Assembly: GCA_965368975.1 (NCBI GenBank)
Contig: CBDUPA010000006.1
Span: 32,001 to 96,000 of the forward strand
Length of the DNA: 64,000 bases
Reading direction: 5' to 3'
Source of the DNA: an uncultured bacterium
Lineage (GTDB): Bacteria; Acidobacteriota; Thermoanaerobaculia; Multivoradales; JAHZIX01
Each line of letters starts with the position of its first letter. Position 1 is the first letter of the stretch. Below are positions 1 through 22,032 of this stretch, one piece after another. The translations under genes and the position numbers were made by a program. The notes below the pieces were generated by a model. It was given only the letters and a program-made list of their open reading frames with translations. It had not been told where the DNA came from and did no database searches.

Positions 1-3000
1 GCCAGGTCAAGGTACGGGGCGTACGCGTCGAGTTGGGGGAGATCGAGGCCGTGCTGGCGGCGTATCCGGTGGTGCGGCAGGTGGCCGTGGTACCAGTTGC
101 CGGAGCCGTGCCCCTGCGACTGGCCGCCTGTGTTGTACCCAGCACTGCGGGCAGCCAGTTCGACGACGAGCCCGCGGCGCGCCTGGAACTCTACGAGCAG
201 CAGGTCGACGACTGGACCGAGATGTTCGACGAGATCTACGACGATGGCCGCGAGGTGCGCGACCTGGGGCTCGACACGGTCGGCTGGAACAGCAATTACA
301 CCGGTGAGCCCCTGTCCGAAGCTGAGATGCGCGAGTGGCTGGATGACACCGTCGAGCGCATTCTCGGGCTGCGTCCGCGCGATGTGCTGGAGATCGGCGT
401 CGGTACCGGCATGGTGTTGCAGCGGGTGGCGCCGCACTGCCGCCGCTACCTGGGCACCGACGTCTCGACGCGGGCCCTCACCGATCTGCTGATGACCCTC
501 GGTACGGCGCCGGAGCCGCTGCCCGTCGAGTTGCTGCAGCGGCCGGCACACGTTTTCGAGGGTCTCGGGGCCGGCAGCTTGGATACCGTCCTCCTCAACT
601 CGGTGGTGCAGTACTTCCCGAGCGCCGAATACCTGGCCCAGGTGCTGGAGCGGGCGATCGACTGCCTGGCACCCGGTGGAGCCGTCTTCCTGGGCGACAT
701 CCGCAGCCTGCCCCTGCTCGCGCGCTTCCACCTGTCCGTCGAGTTATACCAGGCGCCGGACGCCTTGCCCGTGGAGCAACTGCGCCGCCGACTCACCGAG
801 CGCGGGCTGCAGGAAAACGAGCTAGCGGTCGCCCCGGCCTTCTTCCACGTCCTGGCGGCGCGACTGAACCGGGCCCATGCCGAGCGGCCCGGTCCTCGGA
901 AGCACGTGACGGTCGAGATCTACCCCAAGCACGGCCGCACGTGCAACGAGATGACCGCCTTCCGCTACCAGGTGGTGTTGCGCGTCGAGGTGTCCGGGCA
1001 CGAGGGTCCGGCGCAGCCGCCGTGCCAGCCTGATTGGCAGGCGGGTGCCGATCTCGACCGGGTGACGCTGCGCCAGCAGCTCGAAGCCAGCGCACGCGTG
1101 CCGCGAGACGTGGTGGCCTGGACGCGACTGCCCAACGCGCGCGTGCGGCGGGAAACGCTCGCCGCACGCTGGCTGCGGCGTGCCGCATCCAAGCAGACGG
1201 CTACCGTCGCCGACCTGCGGCGCCATCTCGACACCCTCGAAGCCGGCGGCGAGATGGCTGGCTTCGAGCCGGACGAGTTGGTCGAGCTGGGACGGGAGCT
1301 AGGCTTCCACGTGCACGTTGGCTGGAGTCACCACGATGCGGAGGGTCATCTGGATGTGATCTTCCAGCGCCGCACGCCGGGCGAGAGCGCGGAGGTAGTC
1401 GAGCAGTGGCAGCGCGCGGCGGCACGCCTGTCCGTCGAGCACACAGTCCCTCGCGACAGGTTGGCCAACGATCCGATCGCTGGTCAGCAGGCACGCGAGC
1501 TGGTACCCGAGCTGCGCAACTGGTTGGGTCACAAGCTGCCGGACGCCTGGATTCCGTCGGCATTCCGGCTGTTCGAAGCCCTGCCGGTGACCGCCAATGG
1601 CAAGCTAGACCGCACCGTTCTGCAGCGCAGCGTCTCGGAAGGAGGGGCCATTTGCGCAGCCGAGCGCACGGGTGGTGCCCCGGAGACCGTGGTCGAGGTG
1701 GCACTGGCGGAGATCTGGTGCCAGCTGCTGGGCGTCGAGCAGGTCTCGTTGCAGGACAGCTTCTTCCAGCTCGGCGGCCATTCACTGCTCGCCACGCAGC
1801 TCACCTTCCGGCTGCGCGAACGCCTCGGCGTCGAGCTACCGCTGCGCGCCGTGTTCGAGGCACCGACGCTGGGGCAGCTGGCCGAGCGTCTCCAGCAAGT
1901 CCTGCAGTCGCAGGCAGGCTCGGAAGGCGCGGTCGAGATACTACCGGCCTCGAAGGAATTGGACGCCCATGTCGCGCCGCTGTCCTTCGCCCAGCAGCGC
2001 TTGTGGTTCCTCGATCGCCTGGTTCCGGACAGCGCGTCCTACAACATCTTCGGTCCGGTGGCGCTGCGCGGACCGCTCGATGTACAGCGGCTGCAGCGTG
2101 CCTTGCGGCGTATCGTCGAACGCCACGCCACCTTGCGCACGACCTTCCCGGAGCGGTTGCGCTCCGAAGCGGGCGAGCCGTTGCAGCAGGTCGCTGCCCG
2201 CGCGTCCGTCGCTCGGACCTGTGTCAACTTGCCTTGTGTCGATCTGCGGTCCTTGGCACCTGGTGCTCGGGACGCCGAGTTGCAAGCTCGCGTCAGCGCC
2301 GAGCGTCACCGGTCCTTCGATTTGGGGCACGGCCCGATGCTGCGTTTGTGTCTACTGCGGCTGGAGGTCGAGCACCATGTGCTGCTGCTCAACATCCACC
2401 ACATCGCCGCCGATGGCTGGTCGTTGATGATCTTCTTCCGCGAGCTGGGCGCCTTCTACGGCGAGCTGGCTCACAACGCTCGGCCCGATACTCTGACTCC
2501 CGAGCTGCCGGTGCAGTACACGGACTTCGCGCGCTGGCAGCGGGCGCGCCTGACCGGCGCTCTTCGTCAGGCGGAACTCGATTTCTGGCGCCGCCAGCTG
2601 GCCGGTGCGCCGCCCGTGTTGCCGCTGCCGCTCGACCGGCCGCGGCCCTCCACGCCGAGCTTGCGCGGTGGCTTGGTCGAACGCCGTCTGCACGTGGGGA
2701 CGGCGCTGGCGCAGCGCTGCCGGCAGCTCGACGCGACACCGTCGATGCTGCTGCTCGCCGTCTTTGCCGCCCTCTTGCAGCGTTACGGCGCCGGTGCTGA
2801 CCTGCCGATCGGCAGCGCCGTTGCGGGCCGCGATCGCCTGGAGGTCGAGCACCTGATCGGCTTCTTCGTCAATGTGCTGGTGTTGCGTCTCCAGCCGTCA
2901 CGGCGGGCGTCGTTTGCCCGCCTGGTGGCGCAGGCACGGCGAGTGTCGGTCGAGGGTTACGCGCACCAGGAGTTGCCGTTCGAGATGCTGGTGGAGGAGC

Positions 3001-6000
3001 TGAGCGCGGAAGACGGAATGGAGCGCAGCCTGGGGCGCAATCCGCTGTGCCAGGTAATGTTCGACTACCTGGACTTCCCGCAGATGCCGTCGACGACGTT
3101 GACGGCCGAGAGGGAAGGAGCCTCGGCGCTGCGGCTCGAAGCGGTGCCAGGCAAGGCGGACACCGGAACCGCCAAGTTCGACCTGACGCTGCTGCTGGCG
3201 CGCCTTCCCACACCCGATGGCGATGCCGACGCCGCGCCCACACAGGAACTGACCGCCAGCCTGGAATTCAATCTCGACCTCTTCGACGCCACCACCGGCG
3301 AGCGTCTGCTGCGTCACTTCGAGCGCCTGCTCCTCGGTGCCCTCGCCGACCCGGATCTGCCGCTCGCCGAGCTGCCGCTGCTCAGCAGCGGCGAGCGTGA
3401 ACAGCTGCTGCGCCAGTGGCTGGACGTTCCTGCTCCGCGCGCTCACGCTCTCGACGGCCTGTCACTGCCGGCGGCGGTGCACCGTCGTGGGCAGGAGTCA
3501 CCGGAGCGCATCGCGGTCGTCGATGCGGTCGTCGGTGGTGGAAGCTCCGTCGACCGACACCTCAGCTATGGCGAGTTGAGCCGCCGTGCGGTGGGTCTGG
3601 TGCACGAGCTGCGCTCGAAGCTCGGGGCGGTCCCGGAACCCGTGGTCGGGCTCCTGGCCGGAGCCAGTTCTGACCTGGTGATCGGTGCCCTAGCCTCCTG
3701 GTGGGCGGGGGCCGCCTACCTGCCCCTGGACCCACAGGTGCCGCTGCCTCGATTGGAACTGGCGGCACGCAGCGTGGCGGTCGTGGTACCGAGCGCGCCG
3801 CACCTGGAGCCCGCACGGGCCTTGGTCCGTGCGCTGGGTTGCGAGCTCGTGGACGTGTCCCGAGGGCCCGATGGAAGGATGCCGGAACGGGGAAGCCGGG
3901 TCGACGTAGCGCACTCCCCGGAAGCAGAACTGGCCTACATCGTCACCACCTCCGGCTCTACCGGCATCCCCAAGGCCGTCGCCATTCCGCATGGGGCTCT
4001 GCGTCAAAGAATCGCCTGGCACCTCGACGCCTACGCCGTGACGTCCGCCGACCGCACCGTCGCCCTCTCGGCCCCCTCCTTCGATGCGTCTGTCTGGGAC
4101 CTGTGGCCATCGCTGAGCGCGGGCGCCTGCCTCTGCTTCGCGCCCCGCGAGATCGCGGCCGATCCGGGCCGCCTGGTGCCGTGGCTGCAGGCACGGCGCA
4201 TCGATCTCGGCTTCCTGTCGACAGCGGTGGCGGAAGCCGTCGTTGGCGAGTCGCACCTTCTGCGGGATCCTTTGCCGCTACGGGCCCTGCTCACCGGCGG
4301 GGATCGCCTGCACCGGGGCGCCCTGCAACACGTGTCGAGGCTACACAAGACCTCGCTGGTCAATCACTATGGCCCGTCCGAAGCGACCATCCTGGTGACC
4401 GCTGGCAGCGTGTCCGAGACTGCGGCGACCGAGCCTTGGGACCCGCCGCTCGGCCGCCCGCTGCCTGACGTGAGTCTGCGGATACTCGATGCCACCGAGG
4501 CCCCGTGCCCAGGGGACTTGGTACCTATCGGTGTCCCCGGCGAGTTGTGGATCGGCGGCGGGCGAGACGGTCTGGCCCGCGGCTATCTGCAGGATCCGCG
4601 GCGCACCGCCGAGAGCTTCTTGCCCGACGGTCTGAGTCGCGCACCCGGTGCACGCCTGTACCGCAGCGGCGACCTGGTGCGCTGGCGGCGCGGCGGTCAG
4701 CTCGATTTCCTCGGTCGCACCGACTTCCAGGTGCAGCTCCAGGGTGTGCGCACCGAGCCCGCCGAAGTCGAGACGGCGCTGGTGCAGCACCCAGCGGTAC
4801 GCGCCGCTGCGGTGGTCGCGGTAGTACCGCGAGCCGGTTCGGACCGCAGCGTGACGACCCACGGCGTGAGCCTGGCCGCCTTTGTCACCGTCGAGCCAAC
4901 GACACCGGACGAACCGGCCTCTTCCCGATCTGCCGATACGCAATCTTTGGATCTGCGTTCCTGGCTGGTTGGGCGTCTGCCGCGCGCCATGGTGCCGGCA
5001 CGCGTCGAGGTGCTGGACGCACTGCCCGTCACCCGGCACGGCAAGATCGACCGTGCGGCTTTGTCCGAACGGGTGGACCAAGGGTCGACCGTCGAGCACC
5101 GTCCGCCGATCTCGACCACCGAAAGGCAGCTGGCCGAGTTGTGGCGAGAGCTGCTCGAGGCTCAGGTCCCGGGGCTGGACGACGACTTCTTCCAGCTCGG
5201 CGGTCATTCCCTGCTCGCTACGCGCCTCACCTCGCGCTTGCGCGAAGGGATGCAGCTCGAGGTACCTCTGCAGGCCCTCTTCGAATACCCGACCCTGGGT
5301 GCGCTGGCCGCTCACCTCGACCAGGTGCGCCGCGACCAGACGAGGGACGACGTGGCTGTACCGCCGCTCATCCCGCTGCCGCGCGATGTCGCAGGCTTGC
5401 CCGTCGAACCGCCACCGCTCTCCTACGCCCAACGTCGTCTGTGGTTCCTCTCCTTGCTGCCCGGCTTTTCCGCGGCCTACCACGTCGGCTTGCCCAGCCG
5501 TCTCGAGGGTTCGCTACACGTCGCTGCTCTGAGCCGTGCCCTGAGCGCCATCGTCGCGCGCCACGAGGTGCTACGCACCAGCTTCCGGCGGCACGACGAC
5601 GTCAACGACGGGGAGCCCTACCAGCACATCACGGTGCCGGGTCGCTGGTCGCTGCCGGTCGTTGATCTGCGGGGGCTGAACCTTGCCGATACCAGTGCTA
5701 CCGATGCCAGTGCTACCGAGACCAGTGCTACCGATGCCATCGCGTCGAGTCTGGCGGCGCGCGAGGCACACCTTGCCTTCGACCTCGAACACGGCCCGCT
5801 GCTGCGCTGTGTGCTGGTGCGTCAGAGCGCCGAGCGTCACCTGCTGCTACTCACCCTGCACCACGTGATCGCCGACGGCTGGTCGCTGTCGGTGCTGCGG
5901 CGCGAGCTGGAGACCCTGTACTCGGCCCAGTACTCGACCCTGTGCACGGCGGACCTCGCCGAACCCGCGTCGCTGCCTCCGGTATCCGAACTCCTGGACC

Positions 6001-8833
6001 GTCTGCCCCCCTTGCCCGTGCACTACGCGGACTACGCCGTCTGGCAGCGCGGCTTCCTCGAAGGCACGGACGTGAGCACCGGTGCGATCTCGCGGCAGCT
6101 CGACTACTGGCGCCAGCAACTCGACGGCGCCTCCGAGCTGGAATTGCCCACGGACCGTCCCCGCGCCGCCTCAGCGGGACGTCGCGGCGGGATCGTGCCA
6201 CTGCGACTGCCAGCGTCGGTAACCTCGGCGCTGGGGCAGCTGGGAGCGGACACTGGCGCCACCCGCTTCATGGTCTTGCTACCCTTGATCGCCGCCTTCC
6301 TGGGGCGCCTGAACGGGGCACTGGCGGGTACGCCGATAGACATCTCAGAAGGTCGGCACGACGTCGTTCTCGGTTCGCCGGTCGCGGGTCGAGGTCGCCG
6401 GGAGATCGAGGATCTGATCGGCTTCTTCGTCAACACTTTGCCCCTGCGCTGCCGCATGGGGACACCCTCGGAGACCACCAGCCGGCAGCTGATCGTCCAG
6501 TCTCGCCAGACCGTCCTGGAAGCCTTTGCGCACCAGGAGCTGCCGTTCGAGAAGCTGGTCGACGAACTGCAGCTGGTCCGCGATCCACGGCGCAATCCAC
6601 TGTTCCAGGTGATCTTCGCGCTCCAGCAGGCCGAGCAGATGCAAGCGCCACGGCTAGAGGGGATCGACAGCCAGCCGATCGGCCTCGGCGAGGCTACTAC
6701 CCGCTTCGACCTGGAGCTCTACCTCACCGAGGTGGAGACAGTGCTGGCCGGTGCCCTGGTCTACAGCCGCGACCTCTTCGACGCAACGACCGCGCTGCGC
6801 TGGGCCGGTCAGCTGCAGACCCTGCTGAGCTACGCCGCTGCCGCGCCGGACGCGCCGCTAGCGTCGCTGCCGACGATGACGCCGGCGCAGCAGCAGCAGG
6901 TGACCTGGGAGTGGGCGGACGCCGGCCAATCTCTGCAGCGTGAGAGCGAGTTCCCGGACCACCTCGACCGCATCGCCGTCGTCCATGGCGACCAACGCCT
7001 CAGCTACCGTGAACTGCACCGCCGCGCCGCGCTCGTGGCTCGCCACCTGCAATCGAGCGCTGTCGGTATCGGCCCGGAGCAGGTCGTCGGCGTTTGCATG
7101 CCGCGCACGCCAGACCTGGTGGTGGCGATCCTCGGCGTGCTGGCCAGCGGTGCCGCCTACCTGCCGCTGGACCCGGCCTATCCCGAGGAGCGGCTGCGCT
7201 TCATGCAGCAAGACGCTGCCACGCAGCTGGTGCTCCATTCTCTGCAGGATGTCGACTTCGGGGCGGATGTCGCCTTCGAGGCTGAGTGCGCGCCGGGGGC
7301 CCGCGACTTCGAGCCGTGGAATGTGGCCGACCCCGACCACCCCGCGTACGTCATCTATACCTCGGGCTCCACCGGCCGGCCCAAAGGCGTCGTTATCCCG
7401 CGTTCTGCAACGGCTGCGTTGCTGGCGTGGACCCGCACGGCCTTCCCGTCAGAGCACCTGCGCGGCATGCTGGCGCTCACCTCCGTCAGCTTCGACATCT
7501 CCGTCATCGAGCTGCTGGCCCCGCTGAGCGCTGGTGGCACCGTGCTCTTGGTCGACAACGCGCTGCAGCGCGCGGCCCTGCGGGCGCCCGAGGAAGTGAC
7601 GCTGGCCATCGTGGTGCCTTCGGTGATGAACGAATGGTTGACGGTCGGCGAGCTGCCGCCAGCCTTGCGCACGCTGGCGCTGGGGGGCGAGGCGCTGCCG
7701 GCGGCGCTGGTCGAACGGGTGCGCTCGCGCACGGATGCCGAGCTGTGGAATCTCTACGGACCGACCGAGGACACCACCTGCTCGACGGCGGTGCGCTTAC
7801 CTGCAAAGCCATCAGCCCGCGCACCATCGATCGGCCGCCCACTCGCCGGTGGTGGCGGAGACGTACGCCTGCTCGACGGTCGTCTACGGCCGGTGGCTGC
7901 GGGCGAGGTCGGAGAAGTCTGCCTGGGCGGGGCCGGCATTGCGCGCGGCTACCTGGGTCGCCCCGCTCTCACCGCTGAGCGCTTCGTGCCGGATCCGTTC
8001 CGTGCTCTCTTGGAGAGCAGGGCGCACGGGCGCCTCTACCGTACCGGTGACCTCGGTCGCTGGCGCGCCGACGGTGGAGTCGAGTTCCTCGGTCGCCGTG
8101 ATCACCAGGTCAAGCTGCGCGGCTTCCGCATCGAACTCGGTGAGATCGAGGCCGCCCTGCTCGAACACCCCGACGTGCTCGAGGCGGCAGCCCTGGTCGT
8201 CACGACCGGATCGGTGGCACGGCTGCTCGCCTGGGTGACGCCAGAGCCGTCCGTCGACAAGTTGGCCGTCGACAAGTTGTCCGTCGATCAGCTAGCCGCC
8301 GACAAGCTGTCCGCCGTGCACGACGAACTACGTCGACGCCTGCCCGCGCACCTGGTGCCAGAGCAGGTCGAAGCCCTACCTGCCTTGCCACGCACCGCCA
8401 GCGGCAAGCTCGACCGCCGTACCCTGGCGCTGCGAGCCGCCCAGCGCGCGCCGAGTCCGGAGACGCTGCGTGCCGGAGGCACCGCCAGCGACGACTTGGA
8501 GCGGCGCCTGGCCAGCGTCTGGGCCGACGTGCTCGAACTCGACGCCGCGGCCCTGGGCGTCGACGCCAACTTCTTCGAATTAGGTGGCAACTCCTTCCAG
8601 ATGGTGCGTCTGCAGGCACGCCTCCAGCAAGAGCTGAGCGTCGAAGTCGCGACGCTGCCGACGGGTGAACTGAGCCTGGTCGACCTGTTCCAGGCGCCGA
8701 CCATCCGCAGCCTGGCGGCGCGCCTGCGAGCGCCAGACTCGGGCAAGGCGGTGGAGAAGGGCGAGCGCCTGGCCGATCAGCGCAAACAAGCCCACGGCCG
8801 CCTGGCGCGCCTGTCGCAACGGAGGCGTGGCTC

Positions 8834-8837
<4 letters not shown>
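1..8837 (+). CDS. Multimodular NRPS, 5'-truncated: (A-Cterm)-N-MT-PCP-C-A-PCP-C-A-PCP
   Basis: Frame is open from base 3 (QVKVRGVRVELGEIE, A8 motif). MT motifs VLEIGVGTG and LNSVVQYFP; PCP motifs GGHS, GGHS, GGNS; C motifs HHIAADG and HHVIADG; A motifs TSGSTGxPK, YGP(S/T)E, LYR(S/T)GD. Confidence 0.97.
5686..5739 (+). repeat. In-frame 15-bp tandem repeat, about 3.6 copies (DTSAT/DASAT/ETSAT), in an NRPS C domain
   Basis: ccgataccagtgcta ccgatgccagtgcta ccgagaccagtgcta ccgatgcca. Confidence 0.92.
8251..8316 (+). repeat. In-frame 15-bp tandem repeat, about 4.4 copies (VDKLA/VDKLS/VDQLA/ADKLS), in an A subdomain
   Basis: ccgtcgacaagttgg ccgtcgacaagttgt ccgtcgatcagctag ccgccgacaagctgt. Confidence 0.92.
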
Positions 8838-16279
<7,442 letters not shown>

Positions 16280-16323
16280 CTTTCCTGCTGGAACCCTGAA
16301 TATCCGCTACAATCGGTCGCGCT

Positions 16324-17376
16324 ATGGCCTGGTTGTTCAAGCGGAAATTCCGCCTCACATCCCTGGCCACCTCCGGCGGCTGAGCGGCTAAGGTAGGTCC
16401 GGGGGACCTGTCGGAGATGGTACAGAAACTTGGCGTCATTCTTGGGGAGAACGAGCGAGTACTCGTGGGGCCCGAGACGGCGGACGATGCTGGTGTGTAC
16501 CTGCACAATGGCACGGCGCTGGTGGCGACGGCGGACTTCATCACTCCGGTGTGCGACGACCCGAGGCGCTATGGACGGGTGGCGGCGGCGAATGCGCTGT
16601 CGGATGTGTACGCGATGGGTGGGGAAGTGCTGTTCGCCCTCAACCTGTGTTGCTTCCCCGAGGTTCGCGTGCCGGAAGGCACCTTCACTGAGATCCTGGA
16701 AGGCGCGGCCGAGAAGATCAAGGAGGCCGGCGGCGCGCTGCTCGGTGGGCATTCGGTACGCGACCAGGAGCTCAAGTTCGGCCTGTCGGTGGTGGGCCAT
16801 ACGGACCCGGAACGCATGCTGACCAACGCGGGTGCGCAGCCGGGAGACCGTTTGCTACTCACCAAGCCGCTGGGCACAGGGGTGCTGATCAACGCCTACA
16901 AGTTCGACAAGCTGGACGCTGAAGGCCTGGAGCCGGCGCTGCGCTGGATGGAGACGCTGAACGCGGTCGCGTCGCGTCTGGCGCTGCAGCACGGGGCGCA
17001 CGGGGCGACCGACGTCACCGGTTTCGGCCTGGCCGGGCATGGCCTGGAGATGGCGCAGGCGTCCGGTACGACGCTGTGCGTGCGCTTTGCCGACGTGCCG
17101 TTCTACGAGGCCTTCTACGACCTGGTGAAGCGCGGCATCTCGACCGGCTGCACGGAGGCCAACGAGGCCAACGTCAGCGCTTTCTTCGACGACCAGGCAG
17201 GGCTGAGCAAGGCGCAACGAGAGTTGCTGGTCGACCCGCAGACATCCGGCGGTCTGCTGTTGGCGGTGCCCGCCGAAACGTCCGCGGCGTTGCTCGATGC
17301 GCTGTGCTCCGAGGGGCTACCCGCCGCTGACATCGGCGAGGTCGTCGACGGGCCGCCCCGGTTCACGGTGCTCTAG
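16324..17376 (+). CDS. selD: Selenide, water dikinase (selenophosphate synthetase); selenoprotein with Sec at the UGA 16381-16383
   Basis: ATG 16324 gives MAWLFKRKFRLTSLATSGG-U-AAKVGPGDLSEM, in frame with ORF 16417. SelD motifs DDAGV, TADF, AANALSDVYAMGG, GGHS, LTKPLGTG, ATDVTGFGLAGH, DPQTSGGLL. Confidence 0.96.
16395..16409 (+). promoter_or_regulatory. Bacterial SECIS-like hairpin downstream of the Sec UGA
   Basis: aggtcc-ggg-ggacct stem with a G-rich apical loop starting 17 nt after the UGA. Confidence 0.7.
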
Positions 17377-17395
17377 TCTCAAGAAGAACGCGGGC

Positions 17396-18502
17396 TCAGG
17401 AAGAGCGCCGGTAGGCCATCGCCTCGGCGACGCGCTGCTTGGCCAGGGCCATCGCGGCTTCGTACGGCATCTGCTTGTGGCTGCGCGCCAGCTCCAGCAC
17501 CTCGCGCGTGTTCTCGCTGATCTTCTCTTCGATCGTCTCGAAGGCGCGACGCTGCGTGCCGCCGTGGAACTCGACGGAAGCGCAGATGACGCCGCCGGCG
17601 TTGGCCACGATGTCGGGTACGGACAGGATGCCGCGGCCGTGGACGATGCGCTCGGCCTTGGAAGTGACGGGGATGTTGGCGCCCTGCAGGATCATCTTGC
17701 ACTGCAAGTGGGCGACATTGGTTTCGTCAATCACGTCGGGTCGAGCGGCAGGTACCAGGATGTCGCACGGAATGCTGATGAAGGCGCCCCGGTCGAATTT
17801 TTCGGGAGCGTCGTAGTCGGTGACGCGGCCGGTCTCGGCCTTGATCTCGATCAGCTTGTCAATGTCGATACCGTTTGGATCGTGGATCGTGCCGTCGAGG
17901 TCGCTGGCGGCCACCAGCACGGCACCGCGTTGGGCCAGGTAGCGGGCGGCGTGCGAGCCGACGTTGCCGAAGCCCTGGATCACGACGCGTGCACCCTCCA
18001 TCTCGAAGTCGCAGTATTCCTGCGCCACTTCGGCGCAGATCGCCAGACCGTAGCCGGTAGCGCCGATCTGGTCGAGCGGAATCCCTCCCAGCACTTTGGA
18101 GAGGCCGACCGAGCGACCGATCTCGTCGCGGATCCAGCCCATGGCGACTTCGTCTGTTCCCATGTCGGGTCCCGGGATGTAGCCGGTCAGGTTCTTGATC
18201 GCGCGCGCGAACTGGCGGATCAGGGTTTCTTTGTTGGGCACGTCCGGTGCCGCCAGGATGCCCGACTTGCCGCCGCCGTGTGGCAGGCCGGCGAGAGCGT
18301 TCTTCCAGGTCATGGCACGGGCGAGTCGGAAGACCTCGTTGGTGGTGACGTCCGGGGCCATGCGGATGCCGCCGATACCCGGGCCAGCGGCGGTGTTGTC
18401 GACCACGACGATGCCTCGGAGGCCGCAGCGTGGCTCATAGATGTAAACGACTTTTTCGGGGCCGTATTCGTCAGCGAAGGCCTCGAATACCATCTCGCTC
18501 AT
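17396..18502 (-). CDS. Glu/Leu/Phe/Val dehydrogenase family protein
   Basis: GGIRM, AMTWKNALAGLPHGGGKS, GPDMGT, ATGYG, GFGNVG, PDIVANAGGV. Start moved to MSEMV, which has a GGAG RBS. Confidence 0.93.
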   Translation of the reverse strand: MSEMVFEAFADEYGPEKVVYIYEPRCGLRGIVVVDNTAAGPGIGGIRMAPDVTTNEVFRLARAMTWKNALAGLPHGGGKSGILAAPDVPNKETLIRQFARAIKNLTGYIPGPDMGTDEVAMGWIRDEIGRSVGLSKVLGGIPLDQIGATGYGLAICAEVAQEYCDFEMEGARVVIQGFGNVGSHAARYLAQRGAVLVAASDLDGTIHDPNGIDIDKLIEIKAETGRVTDYDAPEKFDRGAFISIPCDILVPAARPDVIDETNVAHLQCKMILQGANIPVTSKAERIVHGRGILSVPDIVANAGGVICASVEFHGGTQRRAFETIEEKISENTREVLELARSHKQMPYEAAMALAKQRVAEAMAYRRSS

Positions 18503-18729
18503 CAGTTGCTCCAGTTCGATAGCAGGTCGGCAAGAAAGTCCGTGGGTGTCGAGGAGGCAGGAGAAACCAAGGTAAACCTCTACTTGCAAAGTATATCCAA
18601 GATCCTTGCCTCAACGGTGCGGTGGGTTCATTCGTTAAAGGGAGTGACCGTAACGGTGCTCGAGGATCGCGACCCTCTTCCTTCCTTCCGACAACCTCCC
18701 GAGACGAACTCTCGAGCAAGGAGAGAACT

Positions 18730-19563
18730 ATGAGACTCACTCTGTCTTCCGTGACGACGGTCGCTTCCCATTTCCTGGTGGCTGCGCTTCTCGTGTCGAC
18801 GGCGATGCCCGTGCACGCTACCGACGAGGTGAACCAGCTGCACCGCCTCGACCACCTCGACGAAAGCTCCGCTGAAGCCCTGGTGCTGGACTTCTGTGAT
18901 GGCTTGCCCATGGGTGTCGTCTGCAACATCCGCGAGACGACTCCCAGCCAGATCTTGGTAACCGCCAAGCCAGAGCAGCAGGCGCGCATTCGCCGCCTGC
19001 TCGGAGAGCACGACATCGTGCGCACTCGCACGTTCCAGGTCGTGGTGGTGCGCGCTTCGGCTGCCAGCGGCGAAGGAATCGCTGCGGACGTACCCGCCAA
19101 TGTGCACGCTGCTCTGCAGGGCCTGACCGAGCTGCTGCCGTTCGGTGGCTTCGAGCTGGTCGATGCCGGTGTGCTCAACACGACCCACGAGGGAACGATC
19201 CGGCTGGCGGGCTCGGACGGTGAGACCTACCGTGCGTCTCTGAACTTTCACAACCATGGTGAGCAGGTCCTGGTCCGCGAGTTTCAGATGAGCGCCTATT
19301 TCCAAGACCGACCTTCCGCGAGCGCGCCTTCCGCGGCGGCGAACTACTCGCTGGCTGGTGCGAATGGTGCGACGACGGCGTCCACCAATTCGAGCGACAC
19401 CTCGCGATCTTCGCAGCGGGTCCGGCAACGGGTTGTTTCGACCAATCTGGGCCTGCAGCTGGGACAGACGATGGTCGTGGGTACCGCCAAGCTGGGTAGT
19501 GCAGACGAGCCGCTGGTGGTCTTGCTCACGGCTCTGCCGGAAGTTCCTTCAGGGACTCGGTAG
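18730..19563 (+). CDS. Secreted hypothetical protein
   Basis: AGGAG RBS; signal peptide MRLTLSS...PVHA; GC-rich codon usage. Confidence 0.7.
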   Translation: MRLTLSSVTTVASHFLVAALLVSTAMPVHATDEVNQLHRLDHLDESSAEALVLDFCDGLPMGVVCNIRETTPSQILVTAKPEQQARIRRLLGEHDIVRTRTFQVVVVRASAASGEGIAADVPANVHAALQGLTELLPFGGFELVDAGVLNTTHEGTIRLAGSDGETYRASLNFHNHGEQVLVREFQMSAYFQDRPSASAPSAAANYSLAGANGATTASTNSSDTSRSSQRVRQRVVSTNLGLQLGQTMVVGTAKLGSADEPLVVLLTALPEVPSGTR

Positions 19564-20629
19564 ACCCTGTCGTCAAGGCCTGCTCGAGGGCCTCGAACGG
19601 CTCCGTCTCATTCGAGGTCACGACCCGCCGGATCACCTCGACGACCGCCCGCGGCTGCCCGTCGTGGGCGGTCCAGAGGCGGTCGAGGAGGTCGAGCCGC
19701 TGGCGGTAGATGCGGGCAGCGACGACGCTGGCGTTGTTGAGTGGCTGCACGGCGAGCTGTGGGCCGTCATAGACTTCGAACTCCTCGGCCAAGGCACCTC
19801 CGAGCTCGATGCGTGCGGTGTCGAAGGCTTGCCGGCGTTGCGTGTCGAGATCCGCGGAGGCCGACGCGTAGAGTGTGGTGAGACGTCCCGCCAGCCGTTG
19901 GTAGAAGTCGGCCAAGCGCTGCTCGTCGCGCCACCAGCCGGCAGCGCGCGCCGCGAGCTCGGGTTCGCCGCGCAGGCGGAAGAAGAGTTCAGCTCCGCGC
20001 AAGCCGATCAGCTGTGCGTAGCTCTCGTTGAACCCGACGTGGTCGGGCACCCATAGCGAGTTGTGTGAGATCTCGTGCAGCACCGTCGACACCAGGGTGA
20101 CGGGGTCGTCGCTGAGCGCCGTCGATAACAGCGGGTCGGGGAACCAGCCGAGGGTGGAGAAGGCGGAGGCCGTGCGTACGTAGGTGTCCAGGCCGCGCGC
20201 TTGCAGCCGTTCGGCCTCGCGGCGGGCTGCGGCCTGATCGAAGAAGCCTTTGTAGGGAACCGCACCGACGACCGGATACCACCAAGAGTAGGCCTCCAAC
20301 CGGTCGCGTGGACTGGCGGAGACGACCCACAGCAGCGGACCGTCACCGATCTCCGAGAAGGTCGTGTAGGTGTTGCCAGCCTCGAGACCGCGCTGTGCGG
20401 CGAACTCTCGAGCTTGGCGCACCCATTCCAATTGCTCGCGCCGTGCGGCTGGCAGCCGGGGGTCGCCGAGTACCGCGTCGAGGGGCCGCCGGTGCGCCAG
20501 GATGCGGGCTTCCTGCCAGGCGGCGTGCAGCACGAAGCGCGCTTCCCGGCTGACGGCAAGAGTCAGCAGCAGCAAGACGAGGACGGCGAGGACGGCACGG
20601 TGGAACAGCTTGCGGCGCTTCGGTGTCAT
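19526..20629 (-). CDS. Zn-dependent aminopeptidase family protein (HEXXH)
   Basis: N-terminal TM anchor; WWYPVVGAVPYKGFF, AFSTLGWFPDP, HEISH, FNES motifs. Confidence 0.88.
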   Translation of the reverse strand: MTPKRRKLFHRAVLAVLVLLLLTLAVSREARFVLHAAWQEARILAHRRPLDAVLGDPRLPAARREQLEWVRQAREFAAQRGLEAGNTYTTFSEIGDGPLLWVVSASPRDRLEAYSWWYPVVGAVPYKGFFDQAAARREAERLQARGLDTYVRTASAFSTLGWFPDPLLSTALSDDPVTLVSTVLHEISHNSLWVPDHVGFNESYAQLIGLRGAELFFRLRGEPELAARAAGWWRDEQRLADFYQRLAGRLTTLYASASADLDTQRRQAFDTARIELGGALAEEFEVYDGPQLAVQPLNNASVVAARIYRQRLDLLDRLWTAHDGQPRAVVEVIRRVVTSNETEPFEALEQALTTGSTESLKELPAEP

Positions 20630-20721: not shown

Positions 20722-22032
20722 ATGGAGATCGAGCTCAAACCTTGTTTTGCCGACCCGGTCCTGAACGTCATGAACTTCCTCAACGAGGTGGTTCTACGCT
20801 ATCCGGAGGCCATTTCCTTTGCGCCCGGGCGGCCGGCGGAAAGTTTCTTCGACGTCGAAGCCAGCTTGGACGAGATCGGTCGCTTCGTCGATCATCGCTG
20901 TGAGCAGCTCGGCTGGTCGCGGCCGCGGGTGCTCGGTGATCTGGGGCAGTACAACAAGACCAACGGGATTATCAACGATCTGATCGCCCGTCACCTGGAG
21001 CTGGACGAGAACATCCGCATCCGGCCGGAGGCGGTGGTCGTCACCTGCGGTTGCCAGGAAGGGATGAACGTCTTGCTGGCGGCTTTGTTCGAGCCGGGCC
21101 GCGACGTGCTGCTATCCAGCGACCCGACGTACATCGGAATCACGGGGCTGGCGGATATCTTGGGTATCGAAGTGGTACCGGTACGGGCGGGCGATCACGG
21201 TGTCGAGCCCGACGTACTGGCCGCCGCCGTCGAGCAGGTGCGTCGCGCCGGCAAGCGACCGCGGGCCTTTTACGACGTGCCGGACTTCAACAATCCGATG
21301 GGAACCAGCATGCCGCTGCCAGCCCGCCACGCGATTCTGAAGCTGGCGCACAGCGAGGACATGCTGATCTTCGAGGACAACCCGTACGGCATGTTCGCCT
21401 ACGATGGCGAGCCGCAGCCGACGCTCAAATCACTCGACGAGCACGGCGTCGTGATCTACATGGGGACCTTTTCGAAGACGCTCTTCCCGGGCTTGCGGGT
21501 CGGCTATCTCGTTGCCGATCAGGCGGCACGTGTGAACACGCACGGGGAGGAGGCGCTTGGCGACGCTCAGGTGCTGGCGGCGGAGCTCTCCAAGGTCAAG
21601 AGCCTGACGTCGGTGACCACCTCGCCACTGCTGCAGGCGATGGTCGGCGGCACCCTGCTGCGCACCGGTGGTTCGCTGCAGGCGTTGATGGGTGACAAGA
21701 TCGCGCACTATAAGAAGAACCGCGACAGCATGTTGAGCGCCCTGGAACGGCACCTGGGAGGTGTCGAAGGTGTGCGCTGGAATCGCCCCGCGGGTGGTTT
21801 CTTTCTCACGGTCTATCTGCCGTTCGTCTTCGACGAGCGTTGCCTGCGGCGGTGCGCGGAGGAGTTCGGTGTGATTGTGTGCCCGATGTCTGACTTCGCT
21901 CGGACAGAGGGTTGTGAGCGAATGATTCGTCTGTCGTTCAGCTATGTGACGCCGGAACAGATTGAAGCAGGAATCGAACGTCTGTCGCGCTTTGTGCGCG
22001 GCACGGTCCAAGACGGAAACTCTCGGGACTGA
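20722..22032 (+). CDS. PLP-dependent aminotransferase, HpgT/Pgat-like ((di)hydroxyphenylglycine transaminase family)
   Basis: MNFLNE..YPEAISFAPGRP, QYNKTNGIINDLIARHLELDENI, EDNPYG, GTFSKTLFPGLRVG, WNRPAGGFF. These resemble glycopeptide HpgT as recalled, not as searched. Confidence 0.85.
   Translation: MEIELKPCFADPVLNVMNFLNEVVLRYPEAISFAPGRPAESFFDVEASLDEIGRFVDHRCEQLGWSRPRVLGDLGQYNKTNGIINDLIARHLELDENIRIRPEAVVVTCGCQEGMNVLLAALFEPGRDVLLSSDPTYIGITGLADILGIEVVPVRAGDHGVEPDVLAAAVEQVRRAGKRPRAFYDVPDFNNPMGTSMPLPARHAILKLAHSEDMLIFEDNPYGMFAYDGEPQPTLKSLDEHGVVIYMGTFSKTLFPGLRVGYLVADQAARVNTHGEEALGDAQVLAAELSKVKSLTSVTTSPLLQAMVGGTLLRTGGSLQALMGDKIAHYKKNRDSMLSALERHLGGVEGVRWNRPAGGFFLTVYLPFVFDERCLRRCAEEFGVIVCPMSDFARTEGCERMIRLSFSYVTPEQIEAGIERLSRFVRGTVQDGNSRD

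What the first reader, a model, noticed from the sequence alone, without database searches (positions are those of the whole stretch)
16324..16416. Hidden selenoprotein: selD reads through an in-frame UGA followed by a SECIS-like hairpin
Seen: ATG 16324 gives RLTSLATSGG-TGA-AAKVGPGDL in frame with the truncated ORF. A hairpin (aggtcc-ggg-ggacct) follows, with its G-rich loop starting 17 nt after the UGA. Known: SelD has its catalytic Cys/Sec at exactly this GxxU-x-x-K position. Inference: the organism recodes UGA as Sec, so automated annotation loses the active site, and other selenoproteins in the genome may be mis-called too.
Basis: partly seen in the sequence, partly recalled or inferred. 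Interest (0 to 1): 0.78.

Follow-up and report, generated by a model that had tools for sequence, protein, structure and literature searches.

The report
Selenocysteine-containing selD gene with SECIS hairpin
The gene for selenophosphate synthetase (SelD) carries an in-frame UGA that is almost certainly read as selenocysteine with the help of a hairpin just downstream, which is a real but well-known arrangement.

Summary
ATG 16324 opens a 350-codon SelD frame (TIGR00476, 350.6 bits against a cut-off of 125). Its only interruption is TGA 16381-16383. That codon aligns with the catalytic Sec/Cys of solved SelD structures, and the conserved Lys follows three residues later.

Of the 28 selD N-terminal regions I aligned from same-order genomes, 27 have TGA in this column and 1 has TGC.

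A hairpin follows: stems 16392-16400 and 16404-16412, loop GGG 16401-16403, with 17 nt between the UGA and the loop. It meets all four constraints of the published bacterial SECIS model. Its synonymous sites are frozen while flanking ones vary. A second selD clade keeps the hairpin with a different sequence through compensatory changes. The single Cys-type orthologue lacks it.

The 99%-complete genome encodes selA, selB and tRNA-Sec(UCA). It also holds five further genes with an in-frame TGA at canonical positions: FdhA, two SelW-like, one AhpD-like and one Prx-like. TGA also ends ordinary genes, so this is local recoding and not a changed code.

The public protein collection holds only the truncated 319-aa form.

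Sec-containing SelD is the second most widespread bacterial selenoprotein family. This is therefore an ordinary new member of a known kind, and interest is low.

The parts
16324..17376 (+). Full selD coding sequence: 350 codons plus the TAG stop, with one in-frame UGA at codon 20.
   Evidence: Translation with TGA=U. TIGR00476 scores 350.6 bits (cut-off 125) and NF002098 scores 309.8 bits (cut-off 299). Pfam finds the AIRS and AIRS_C domains. The best solved relatives are SelD chains 2yye (E 8e-67) and 3u0o (E 3e-59).
16381..16383 (+). UGA codon 20, read as selenocysteine (inferred). It is the catalytic Sec/Cys of the N-terminal glycine-rich loop, and Lys follows three residues later.
   Evidence: It aligns with the Cys of ...SSGCAAKVGPGDL... 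in 2yye and with the matching Cys of E. coli SelD 3u0o. The column is TGA in 27 of 28 aligned selD genes and TGC in 1.
16392..16412 (+). bSECIS upper stem-loop. The 9-bp stem pairs 16392-16400 with 16404-16412. The apical loop is GGG at 16401-16403. The conserved core is the five pairs 16396-16400 with 16404-16408.
   Evidence: Fold of 16381-16420: -12.4 kcal/mol. The core is invariant in 17 of 17 clade-1 genes. Ten clade-2 genes replace it with a different 6-7 bp hairpin with a GGUC loop at the same place. Covariation count.
16388..16416 (+). Possible lower extension of the SECIS: two further pairs, 16388-16389 with 16415-16416, beyond a 2x2 internal loop.
   Evidence: Seen only in the MFE fold of the window's own sequence. 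The consensus fold of relatives does not support it, so it is weak.
16417..17376 (+). Truncated 319-aa ORF that ordinary ORF calling yields. It lacks the catalytic loop.
   Evidence: the ORF listing. This exact 319-aa sequence is what the public protein collection holds.
16307..16312 (+). -10-like hexamer TACAAT, ending 11 nt before the ATG. It may be the selD promoter and may give a leaderless or near-leaderless mRNA (inferred).
   Evidence: In the alignment of 12 upstream regions, T....T is invariant and the A at position 2 is present in 11 of 12. The hexamer lies 6-11 nt before the ATG. The consensus promoter scan found nothing in 16000-17700.

Best explanation
Window 16324-17376 (+) is the genome's single selD gene, encoding selenide, water dikinase (selenophosphate synthetase). 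The protein is itself a selenoprotein.

Codon 20 is UGA. A stem-loop lies inside the coding sequence, with its G-rich apical loop starting after 17 intervening nucleotides. This is a bacterial SECIS.

Proposed mechanism: SelB, carrying GTP and Sec-tRNA(Sec, anticodon UCA), binds the hairpin and delivers selenocysteine when the UGA reaches the ribosomal A site, in competition with release factor 2. The resulting Sec20, together with Lys23 in the flexible glycine-rich N-terminal loop, forms the selenium-binding catalytic site. The enzyme makes selenophosphate from selenide and ATP, and SelA uses that to convert Ser-tRNA(Sec) to Sec-tRNA(Sec). Because this is the only selD in the genome, the enzyme depends on its own product for its synthesis.

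Shown here: the gene's identity, the position of the UGA, its conservation, the hairpin and its conservation, and the presence of selA, selB and selC.

Inferred from established knowledge of the bacterial Sec pathway: actual Sec insertion, SelB binding and the catalytic role.
For: 1. Identity. TIGR00476 scores 350.6 bits and is matched from model position 1 at residue 10. NF002098 scores 309.8 bits over residues 7-342.

2. Position. The UGA aligns with the active-site Cys of the solved SelD chains 2yye and 3u0o. Lys follows at +3.

3. Conservation. A search of 41 genomes of the same order, own included, gave 28 full-length selD matches with exactly one TGA, in 27 genomes. One match has no stop, and one is cut by a contig end. 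In the alignment of 28 N-terminal regions, 27 have TGA and 1 has TGC. The 19 codons upstream of the UGA are conserved as protein.

4. Hairpin against the published bSECIS constraints (PMC13188914, passages from its SECIS section and the legend of Fig. 2). The loop is 3 nt (allowed 3-9). The stem is 9 bp (allowed 4-16). G occupies loop positions 1-2. Spacing is 17 nt (allowed 16-37). MFE is -12.4 kcal/mol (required <= -7.5).

5. RNA-level constraint. In 17 of 17 clade-1 genes, the four synonymous third positions inside the hairpin (GGT, CCG, GGG, GAC) are invariant. All six flanking third positions vary.

6. Compensatory change. The ten clade-2 genes encode SPVGL instead of GPGDL. They still form a hairpin at the same place, GAGCCC/GGGCUC with loop GGUC (L037 folds at -22 kcal/mol, z -3.6). 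On the model-fitted alignment, 87% of cells are paired and 21 cells are changed on both sides. None of 500 shuffles reached either value.

7. Cys-type orthologue. The one such orthologue (L036) has no hairpin (z +0.96).

8. Machinery. selA, selB and tRNA-SeC(tca) are present.

9. Other in-frame TGAs at canonical sites in the same genome, each followed by a hairpin whose loop starts 17-22 nt after the UGA:
- FdhA, SRA-U-HAPTVAG
- two SelW-like proteins, CxxU
- one AhpD-like protein, CxxU
- one Prx-like protein, UxxC
- hairpin folds for all of them

10. TGA is also an ordinary stop. The NRPS gene directly upstream ends in TGA 16277-16279, just after a complete thioesterase domain.

11. Metagenome relatives. 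Contigs from 3 studies, about 92% identical, span 16304-17365. None of the 40 rows of listed differences falls at 16381-16383 or in the hairpin; 90 further rows were not printed.
Against: - No direct evidence of Sec insertion exists here: no RNA, proteome or 75Se data.
- The hairpin's energy is not significantly better than shuffled sequence in this G+C-rich context (z -0.08 to -1.54).
- Within clade 1 the stem never varies, so it shows conservation but no covariation.
- The compensatory signal comes from a contrast between two clades, effectively one or a few events in related genomes. It was counted on an alignment fitted to the structure.
- The hairpin overlaps a conserved peptide (GPGDL), so part of its conservation is protein-level.
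- Only one Cys-type orthologue was available for contrast.
- One clade-2 gene (L040) departs from the consensus hairpin, with 2 broken pairs.
Confidence: 0.95

Rival explanations
1. The TGA is a genuine stop. The gene is a pseudogene, or the functional product is the N-terminally truncated 319-aa protein that starts at ATG 16417.
For: Standard ORF calling gives this form, and it is the form held in the public protein collection.
Against: - The truncated protein lacks the Sec/Cys-x-x-Lys catalytic loop that the SelD models and structures cover.
- The 19 codons before the TGA are conserved as protein, and the TGA itself is conserved in 27 of 28 orthologues. A decaying leader would not show this.
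- This is the only selD in a genome that carries selA, selB, selC and at least five other TGA-containing selenoprotein-type genes.
Confidence: 0.02
2. The UGA is decoded, but not as Sec. Either near-cognate read-through inserts Trp or Cys, or the organism has reassigned UGA (code 4 or 25 type).
For: The sequence alone cannot tell which residue is inserted.
Against: - TGA ends ordinary genes here. The upstream NRPS ends with TGA after a complete TE domain, and both SelW-like frames end in TGA.
- The in-frame TGAs found sit only at known Sec/Cys redox or catalytic positions, each followed by a hairpin.
- A dedicated tRNA-SeC(tca), selA and selB are present.
Confidence: 0.02
3. The TGA is a sequencing or assembly error for TGC or TGT.
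For: None beyond the general possibility. No public run holds this stretch well enough to check raw reads: the best share of sampled words was 0.10.
Against: - The same codon is found in 26 other independently assembled genomes.
- Contigs of four metagenome runs from three studies cover the site, and none of the differences that were printed falls there.
Confidence: 0.005

Closest known systems
Sec-containing SelD (selenophosphate synthetase) of bacteria. Examples are the Pasteurellales SelD-Sec forms discussed in PMC4561486 and the SelD selenoproteins listed for Deltaproteobacteria, Clostridia and Actinobacteria in PMC1794560.
   Same: Same family, with the same UGA position in the N-terminal glycine-rich loop and a SECIS hairpin inside the coding sequence just after the UGA. 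It co-occurs with selA, selB, selC and a FdhA selenoprotein. [quoted passage not shown]
   Different: Nothing in kind. The differences are in detail. The hairpin is compact, with a 5-bp invariant core and a GGG triloop. The genome has no selU, so selenouridine synthesis is not what maintains SelD-Sec here.
Aquifex aeolicus SelD (PDB 2yye, 2zod, 2zau)
   Same: It is the best solved relative (E 8e-67). The local motif ...GG/SG-[Sec/Cys]-AAKVGPGDL is almost identical. From recall, not from a call: the native Aquifex enzyme has Sec at this position and the crystallised forms are Cys variants or truncations.
   Different: The two proteins are about 45% alike over the alignment. No structure or activity is known for the window's protein.
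Escherichia coli SelD (PDB 3u0o), the Cys-type enzyme
   Same: Same fold family and same catalytic loop, with Lys three residues after the reactive residue.
   Different: E. coli uses Cys (TGC/TGT) and needs no SECIS. The window's gene uses UGA with a hairpin.
Bacterial SECIS consensus model (bSECISearch, Zhang and Gladyshev 2005, as summarised in PMC13188914)
   Same: All four stated constraints are met: loop size, stem length, G in the first two loop positions and 16-37 nt spacing, plus MFE. The clade-2 relatives and this genome's FdhA and SelW-like genes carry GGUC-type loops. From recall, GGUC is the loop type of the E. coli fdhF SECIS.
   Different: The window's loop is GGG, not GGUC. No bulged U is evident in the upper stem.

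Membership tests
SelD / selenide, water dikinase (NCBIfam TIGR00476, NF002098) | Whole-protein score above the curated equivalog cut-off | tested here: met
   TIGR00476: 350.6 bits against 125. NF002098: 309.8 bits against 299.
SelD / selenide, water dikinase (NCBIfam TIGR00476, NF002098) | Reactive Sec or Cys in the N-terminal glycine-rich loop, followed by Lys at +3 | tested here: met
   GG-U-AAK aligns with the Cys...Lys of 2yye and 3u0o. In 28 orthologues the column is invariant as U/C and the Lys is invariant.
SelD / selenide, water dikinase (NCBIfam TIGR00476, NF002098) | AIR-synthase-related N- and C-terminal domains (PurM-like fold) | tested here: met
   PF00586 at 81.7 bits and PF02769 at 74 bits.
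SelD / selenide, water dikinase (NCBIfam TIGR00476, NF002098) | ATP-dependent synthesis of selenophosphate from selenide | not testable with these tools
   This needs an enzyme assay.
Bacterial SECIS element (consensus model quoted in PMC13188914, Fig. 2 legend) | Apical loop of 3-9 nt on an upper stem of 4-16 bp | tested here: met
   Loop GGG (3 nt) on a 9-bp stem. The 5-bp core is conserved in 17 of 17 clade-1 genes.
Bacterial SECIS element (consensus model quoted in PMC13188914, Fig. 2 legend) | At least one G in the first two loop positions | tested here: met
   The loop is G-G-G at 16401-16403.
Bacterial SECIS element (consensus model quoted in PMC13188914, Fig. 2 legend) | [quoted passage not shown] | tested here: met
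   17 nt, positions 16384-16400.
Bacterial SECIS element (consensus model quoted in PMC13188914, Fig. 2 legend) | MFE of -7.5 kcal/mol or lower | tested here: met
   -12.4 kcal/mol for 16381-16420. This energy is not significantly better than shuffles (z -0.74).
Bacterial SECIS element (consensus model quoted in PMC13188914, Fig. 2 legend) | Structure maintained in evolution beyond what the protein requires | tested here: met
   Four of 4 synonymous sites in the hairpin are frozen while 6 of 6 flanking ones vary. A second clade keeps the hairpin with different residues. Twenty-one cells are changed on both sides, reached by 0 of 500 shuffles, on a model-fitted alignment. The hairpin is absent in the single Cys-type orthologue.
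Bacterial SECIS element (consensus model quoted in PMC13188914, Fig. 2 legend) | Binds SelB and directs Sec insertion | not testable with these tools
   This needs reporter or binding assays.
Bacterial Sec-decoding trait (selA, selB, selC, selD) | selA, selB and tRNA-Sec are present in the same genome | tested here: met
   selA: 445.5 bits against cut-off 267.9. selB: 344.1 bits against 242.25, covering model positions 1-579 of 581. tRNA-Sec: 73.2 bits against 47, and ARAGORN calls it tRNA-SeC with anticodon tca. The genome is 99.3% complete.

The most novel reading that the evidence does not exclude
The most novel reading not excluded concerns a leaderless selD mRNA.

In this bacterial order selD may be transcribed from a promoter whose -10 hexamer (TAnnnT) ends only 6-11 nt before the ATG. 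It is invariant in its key positions in 12 of 12 upstream regions. That would give a leaderless or near-leaderless mRNA.

The UGA (codon 20) and the SECIS would then lie within about 90 nt of the 5' end. Synthesis of the sole, self-dependent SelD might be gated by selenium through an autocatalytic loop, with the SECIS hairpin serving both as the recoding signal and as a 5'-proximal regulator.

No transcript data were available to test this.
Probability: 0.15. Interest if true: 0.35.

Novelty: new member of a known kind. Interest (0 to 1): 0.15.

Why it matters
The value is mainly for annotation. The catalytic N-terminus of the only SelD in this genome is missing from the form held in the public protein collection. 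At least five other genes in the genome (FdhA, two SelW-like, one AhpD-like, one Prx-like) need the same UGA=Sec correction.

It also shows that the Sec trait is widespread in this order: 27 of 41 sampled genomes carry a selD with an in-frame TGA. The trait is kept here without the selenouridine pathway.

It does not change what is known about selenocysteine decoding.

Tried and rejected
- Rfam at gathering thresholds over the whole window found only tRNA-Gln and no SECIS family. No bacterial selD SECIS model matched, and this is not evidence against the hairpin.
- Folding energy as a test of the hairpin gave z-scores of -0.08, -0.74 and -1.54. These are not significant, so I did not use energy as an argument.
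- Laying the whole genome in the Python box failed: the machine gave no usable answer.
- The script machine was then lost at my first script. No genome-wide scripted selenoprotein scan or codon statistics could be run. All counts were read from tool alignments.
- The search for sequencing runs listed no RNA holder. No DNA run held more than 0.10 of the sampled words, so neither expression nor the raw reads of the source could be checked.
- Laying four metagenome runs gave contigs of relatives only.
- The search for related loci in genome contigs returned only relatives at 51% identity or less, from many phyla. I did not use it for the argument, and I did not try to name the organism.
- The earlier-findings look-up for this genome returned nothing.
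- selU (TIGR03167) was not found in the 99.3%-complete genome.
- The thioredoxin family (PF00085) gave 11 matches, none with an internal stop.
- The consensus promoter scan of 16000-17700 found no sigma-70-type site.
- Supplementary files of the cited papers were not consulted. Their lists of SelD-Sec genes could show whether close relatives of this gene are already catalogued.

Full report
**Observation**

- ATG 16324 is the first and only start codon after an in-frame TGA at 16297-16299.
- With TGA read as U, the frame runs 350 codons to TAG 17374-17376. It has a single internal TGA, at 16381-16383, which is codon 20.
- The context is ...RLTSLATSGG-U-AAKVGPGDL....
- Ordinary ORF listing gives only the 319-aa frame from ATG 16417.
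- The hairpin arms are 16395-16400 and 16404-16409, around the loop GGG at 16401-16403. Seventeen nucleotides separate the UGA from the loop.

**What the protein is**

The read-through product is a full-length SelD.
- TIGR00476 scores 350.6 bits (cut-off 125), matched from model position 1 at residue 10.
- NF002098 scores 309.8 bits (cut-off 299), over residues 7-342.
- Pfam finds the AIRS N- and C-terminal domains.
- The best solved relatives are SelD of Aquifex aeolicus (2yye, E 8e-67) and E. coli (3u0o, E 3e-59).
- In both alignments residue 20 falls on the active-site Cys of the glycine-rich N-terminal loop, and the conserved Lys follows three residues later.

The truncated 319-aa form would lack this loop.

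**Relatives**

I searched 41 genomes of the same order, own genome included.
- 28 full-length selD matches in 27 genomes contain exactly one TGA.
- One genome has a selD with no stop.
- One match is cut by a contig end.
- 12 genomes have only a much longer SelD-related open frame (759-1148 aa) without a stop. This resembles the 'fusion, not SelD' family that also scored weakly.

I aligned the N-terminal regions of the window and 27 loci.
- The Sec/Cys column is invariant, and the 19 residues before it are conserved as protein.
- At DNA level, 27 of 28 have TGA and one (L036) has TGC.
- The only row left out was the second copy in G005, which had no locus. L032 lacks the N-terminus.

These genomes are relatives and are not independent, so the count shows a lineage-wide trait, not 27 separate events.

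**The hairpin**

The published consensus model of bacterial SECIS elements is summarised in PMC13188914 (passages from its SECIS section and the Fig. 2 legend). It asks for four things:
- a 3-9 nt apical loop on a 4-16 bp stem;
- a G in the first two loop positions;
- 16-37 nt between the UGA and the loop;
- an MFE of -7.5 kcal/mol or lower.

The window's element has a 3-nt GGG loop, a 9-bp stem, 17-nt spacing and -12.4 kcal/mol. All four constraints are met.

Energy alone is not persuasive in this G+C-rich DNA: z was -0.08, -0.74 and -1.54 against shuffles. The persuasive evidence is comparative.

- Frozen synonymous sites. In the 17 clade-1 genes the core GGUCC-GGG-GGACC is invariant apart from one loop change. 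The four synonymous third positions inside it (GGT, CCG, GGG, GAC) never vary. All six flanking third positions do vary.
- A second clade with a different hairpin. The ten clade-2 genes encode different residues there (SPVGL instead of GPGDL). They still form a hairpin at the same place, GAGCCC-GGUC-GGGCUC. L037 folds at -22 kcal/mol, z -3.6. Relative to clade 1 this replaces G-C by A-U and U-A by C-G.
- A formal count. I built a covariance model from clade 2 and aligned all 27 TGA-type genes to it. On that alignment 87% of cells pair and 21 cells are changed on both sides. None of 500 shuffles reached either value, and slid registers scored much lower. The alignment is fitted to the structure, so this count leans towards it.
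- The Cys-type orthologue. The single such gene has no hairpin (z +0.96). That is n = 1.
- An exception. One clade-2 gene (L040) departs from the consensus, with two broken pairs.

**Machinery and other selenoproteins**

The genome is 7.13 Mb in 59 contigs and 99.3% complete. It encodes:
- selA (445.5 bits);
- a full-length selB (344.1 bits);
- a tRNA-Sec (Rfam 73.2 bits), which ARAGORN calls tRNA-SeC with anticodon tca.

It has one selD only and no selU.

Probing seven further families in the own genome gave five more genes with an in-frame TGA at a canonical site:

| Gene | Motif at the TGA |
|---|---|
| FdhA | SRA-U-HAPTVAG, the Mo/W-ligand position |
| SelW-like (Rdx), first | CVQU |
| SelW-like (Rdx), second | CVSU |
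| AhpD-like | CHYU |
| Prx-like | W-U-PHC |

Each of these UGAs is followed by a hairpin whose loop starts 17-22 nt downstream. In five of the six cases (selD included) the loop begins with G, and the Prx-like loop has G at its second position. The loops of FdhA and one SelW-like gene read GGUCU.

TGA also terminates ordinary genes. The NRPS gene just upstream ends in TGA after a complete thioesterase domain, and both SelW-like frames end in TGA. The code is therefore not reassigned. UGA is recoded locally.

**Annotation and reads**

An exact look-up finds the 319-aa truncated sequence in the public protein collection (sources NCBI, ENA, Logan). It does not find the full-length form. The look-up cannot find records written with U, and I could not see the source record's own annotation.

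No public run holds the stretch well (best share 0.10), and none is RNA. Contigs of four metagenome runs from three studies, about 92% identical, span 16304-17365. None of the 40 printed rows of differences falls at the TGA or in the hairpin. Ninety further rows were not printed, so this is weak support.

**How it works**

The reading follows the established bacterial Sec pathway (summarised in PMC9312934 and PMC13188914, passages).
- SelB, with GTP and Sec-tRNA(Sec), binds the hairpin.
- It inserts Sec at codon 20, in competition with RF2.
- Sec20 and Lys23 in the mobile N-terminal loop form the catalytic site that makes selenophosphate.
- SelA then uses selenophosphate to make more Sec-tRNA(Sec).

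The single SelD thus depends on its own product.

Identity, position, conservation and the presence of the machinery are shown here. Sec insertion, SelB binding and catalysis are inferred.

**Comparison and novelty**

This is a member of a well-known kind.
- PMC4561486 (passages) calls SPS/SelD 'often a selenoprotein itself' and describes the bSECIS as a stem-loop immediately downstream of the UGA.
- SelW-like, AhpD-like and Prx-like selenoproteins are likewise listed families.

What is new is only this instance and its missing annotation. I rate it a new member of a known kind, with low interest.

**Left open**

I could not run a genome-wide selenoprotein predictor or any script, because the machine was lost. 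I could not check raw reads of the source. I could not test expression or the transcription start.

A conserved TAnnnT hexamer lies 6-11 nt before the ATG in 12 of 12 upstream regions. It suggests a leaderless selD mRNA. This is an untested inference.

Noticed in passing
window 16274-16332 and the matching upstream regions of L019-L033: A -10-like hexamer lies 6-11 nt upstream of the selD ATG in all 12 aligned relatives. It reads TACAAT in the window (16307-16312) and TAGACT, TAGAAT, TAAGAT or TGCTAT elsewhere. The T at position 1 and the T at position 6 are invariant, and the A at position 2 is present in 11 of 12. This suggests a leaderless or near-leaderless selD mRNA. There is no obvious Shine-Dalgarno sequence.
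   Followed up: partly
window 8834-16279 (+) and 33-8837 (+): A 2481-aa non-ribosomal peptide synthetase has two condensation, two adenylation and two carrier domains and a terminal thioesterase. It ends 44 nt before selD on the same strand. It is preceded by an overlapping 2934-aa ORF that I did not examine. No link to selD is evident.
   Followed up: partly
own genome: L048 (C2:52117-54117, -), L057 (C18:134712-134924, +), L058 (C3:272432-272662, +), L060 (C1:524439-524564, -), L065 (C2:240815-241210, +): Five further likely selenoprotein genes carry an in-frame TGA at canonical positions. They are FdhA (SRA-U-HAPTVAG), two SelW-like proteins (CVQU, CVSU), one AhpD-like protein (CHYU) and one Prx-like protein (W-U-PHC). 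Each is followed by a hairpin 17-22 nt downstream. They probably need the same annotation fix.
   Followed up: partly
relatives L037-L046 versus L019-L035: Two selD clades coexist in one order. Clade 1 has GG-U-AAK[VI]GPGDL with a GGG triloop hairpin. Clade 2 has an extra Cys two residues before Sec (TCG-U-AAKLSPVGL) and a GGUC tetraloop hairpin. One genome (G005) has two clade-2 copies. G008 has an extra 105-residue fragment with a TGA.
   Followed up: partly
relatives G006, G007, G012, G016-G018, G022, G027, G031, G036, G037, G040: Twelve of 41 genomes of the order have no ordinary selD. They have only a SelD-related domain inside a 759-1148 aa open frame without a TGA. This resembles the NCBIfam 'oxidoreductase/SelD-related fusion protein' (TIGR04369), which is labelled as not SelD. 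I did not check whether these genomes use selenium.
   Followed up: no
window 16340-16410 (tables 7 and 8): Several short metagenome contigs match the window only from about 16340-16362 to 16409 or 16410, then diverge. For distant relatives, DNA-level similarity ends at the 3' end of the hairpin's conserved core.
   Followed up: no
own genome: No tRNA 2-selenouridine synthase (selU/ybbB) was found in the 99.3%-complete genome. SelD here appears to serve the Sec trait alone. I did not search for yqeB/yqeC or selenoneine genes.
   Followed up: partly
window 17396-18589 (-), 19526-20629 (-), 20722-22032 (+): The genes downstream of selD are ordinary. They are a Glu/Leu/Phe/Val dehydrogenase convergent with selD, a putative aminopeptidase (PF10023) and a class I/II aminotransferase.
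   Followed up: partly
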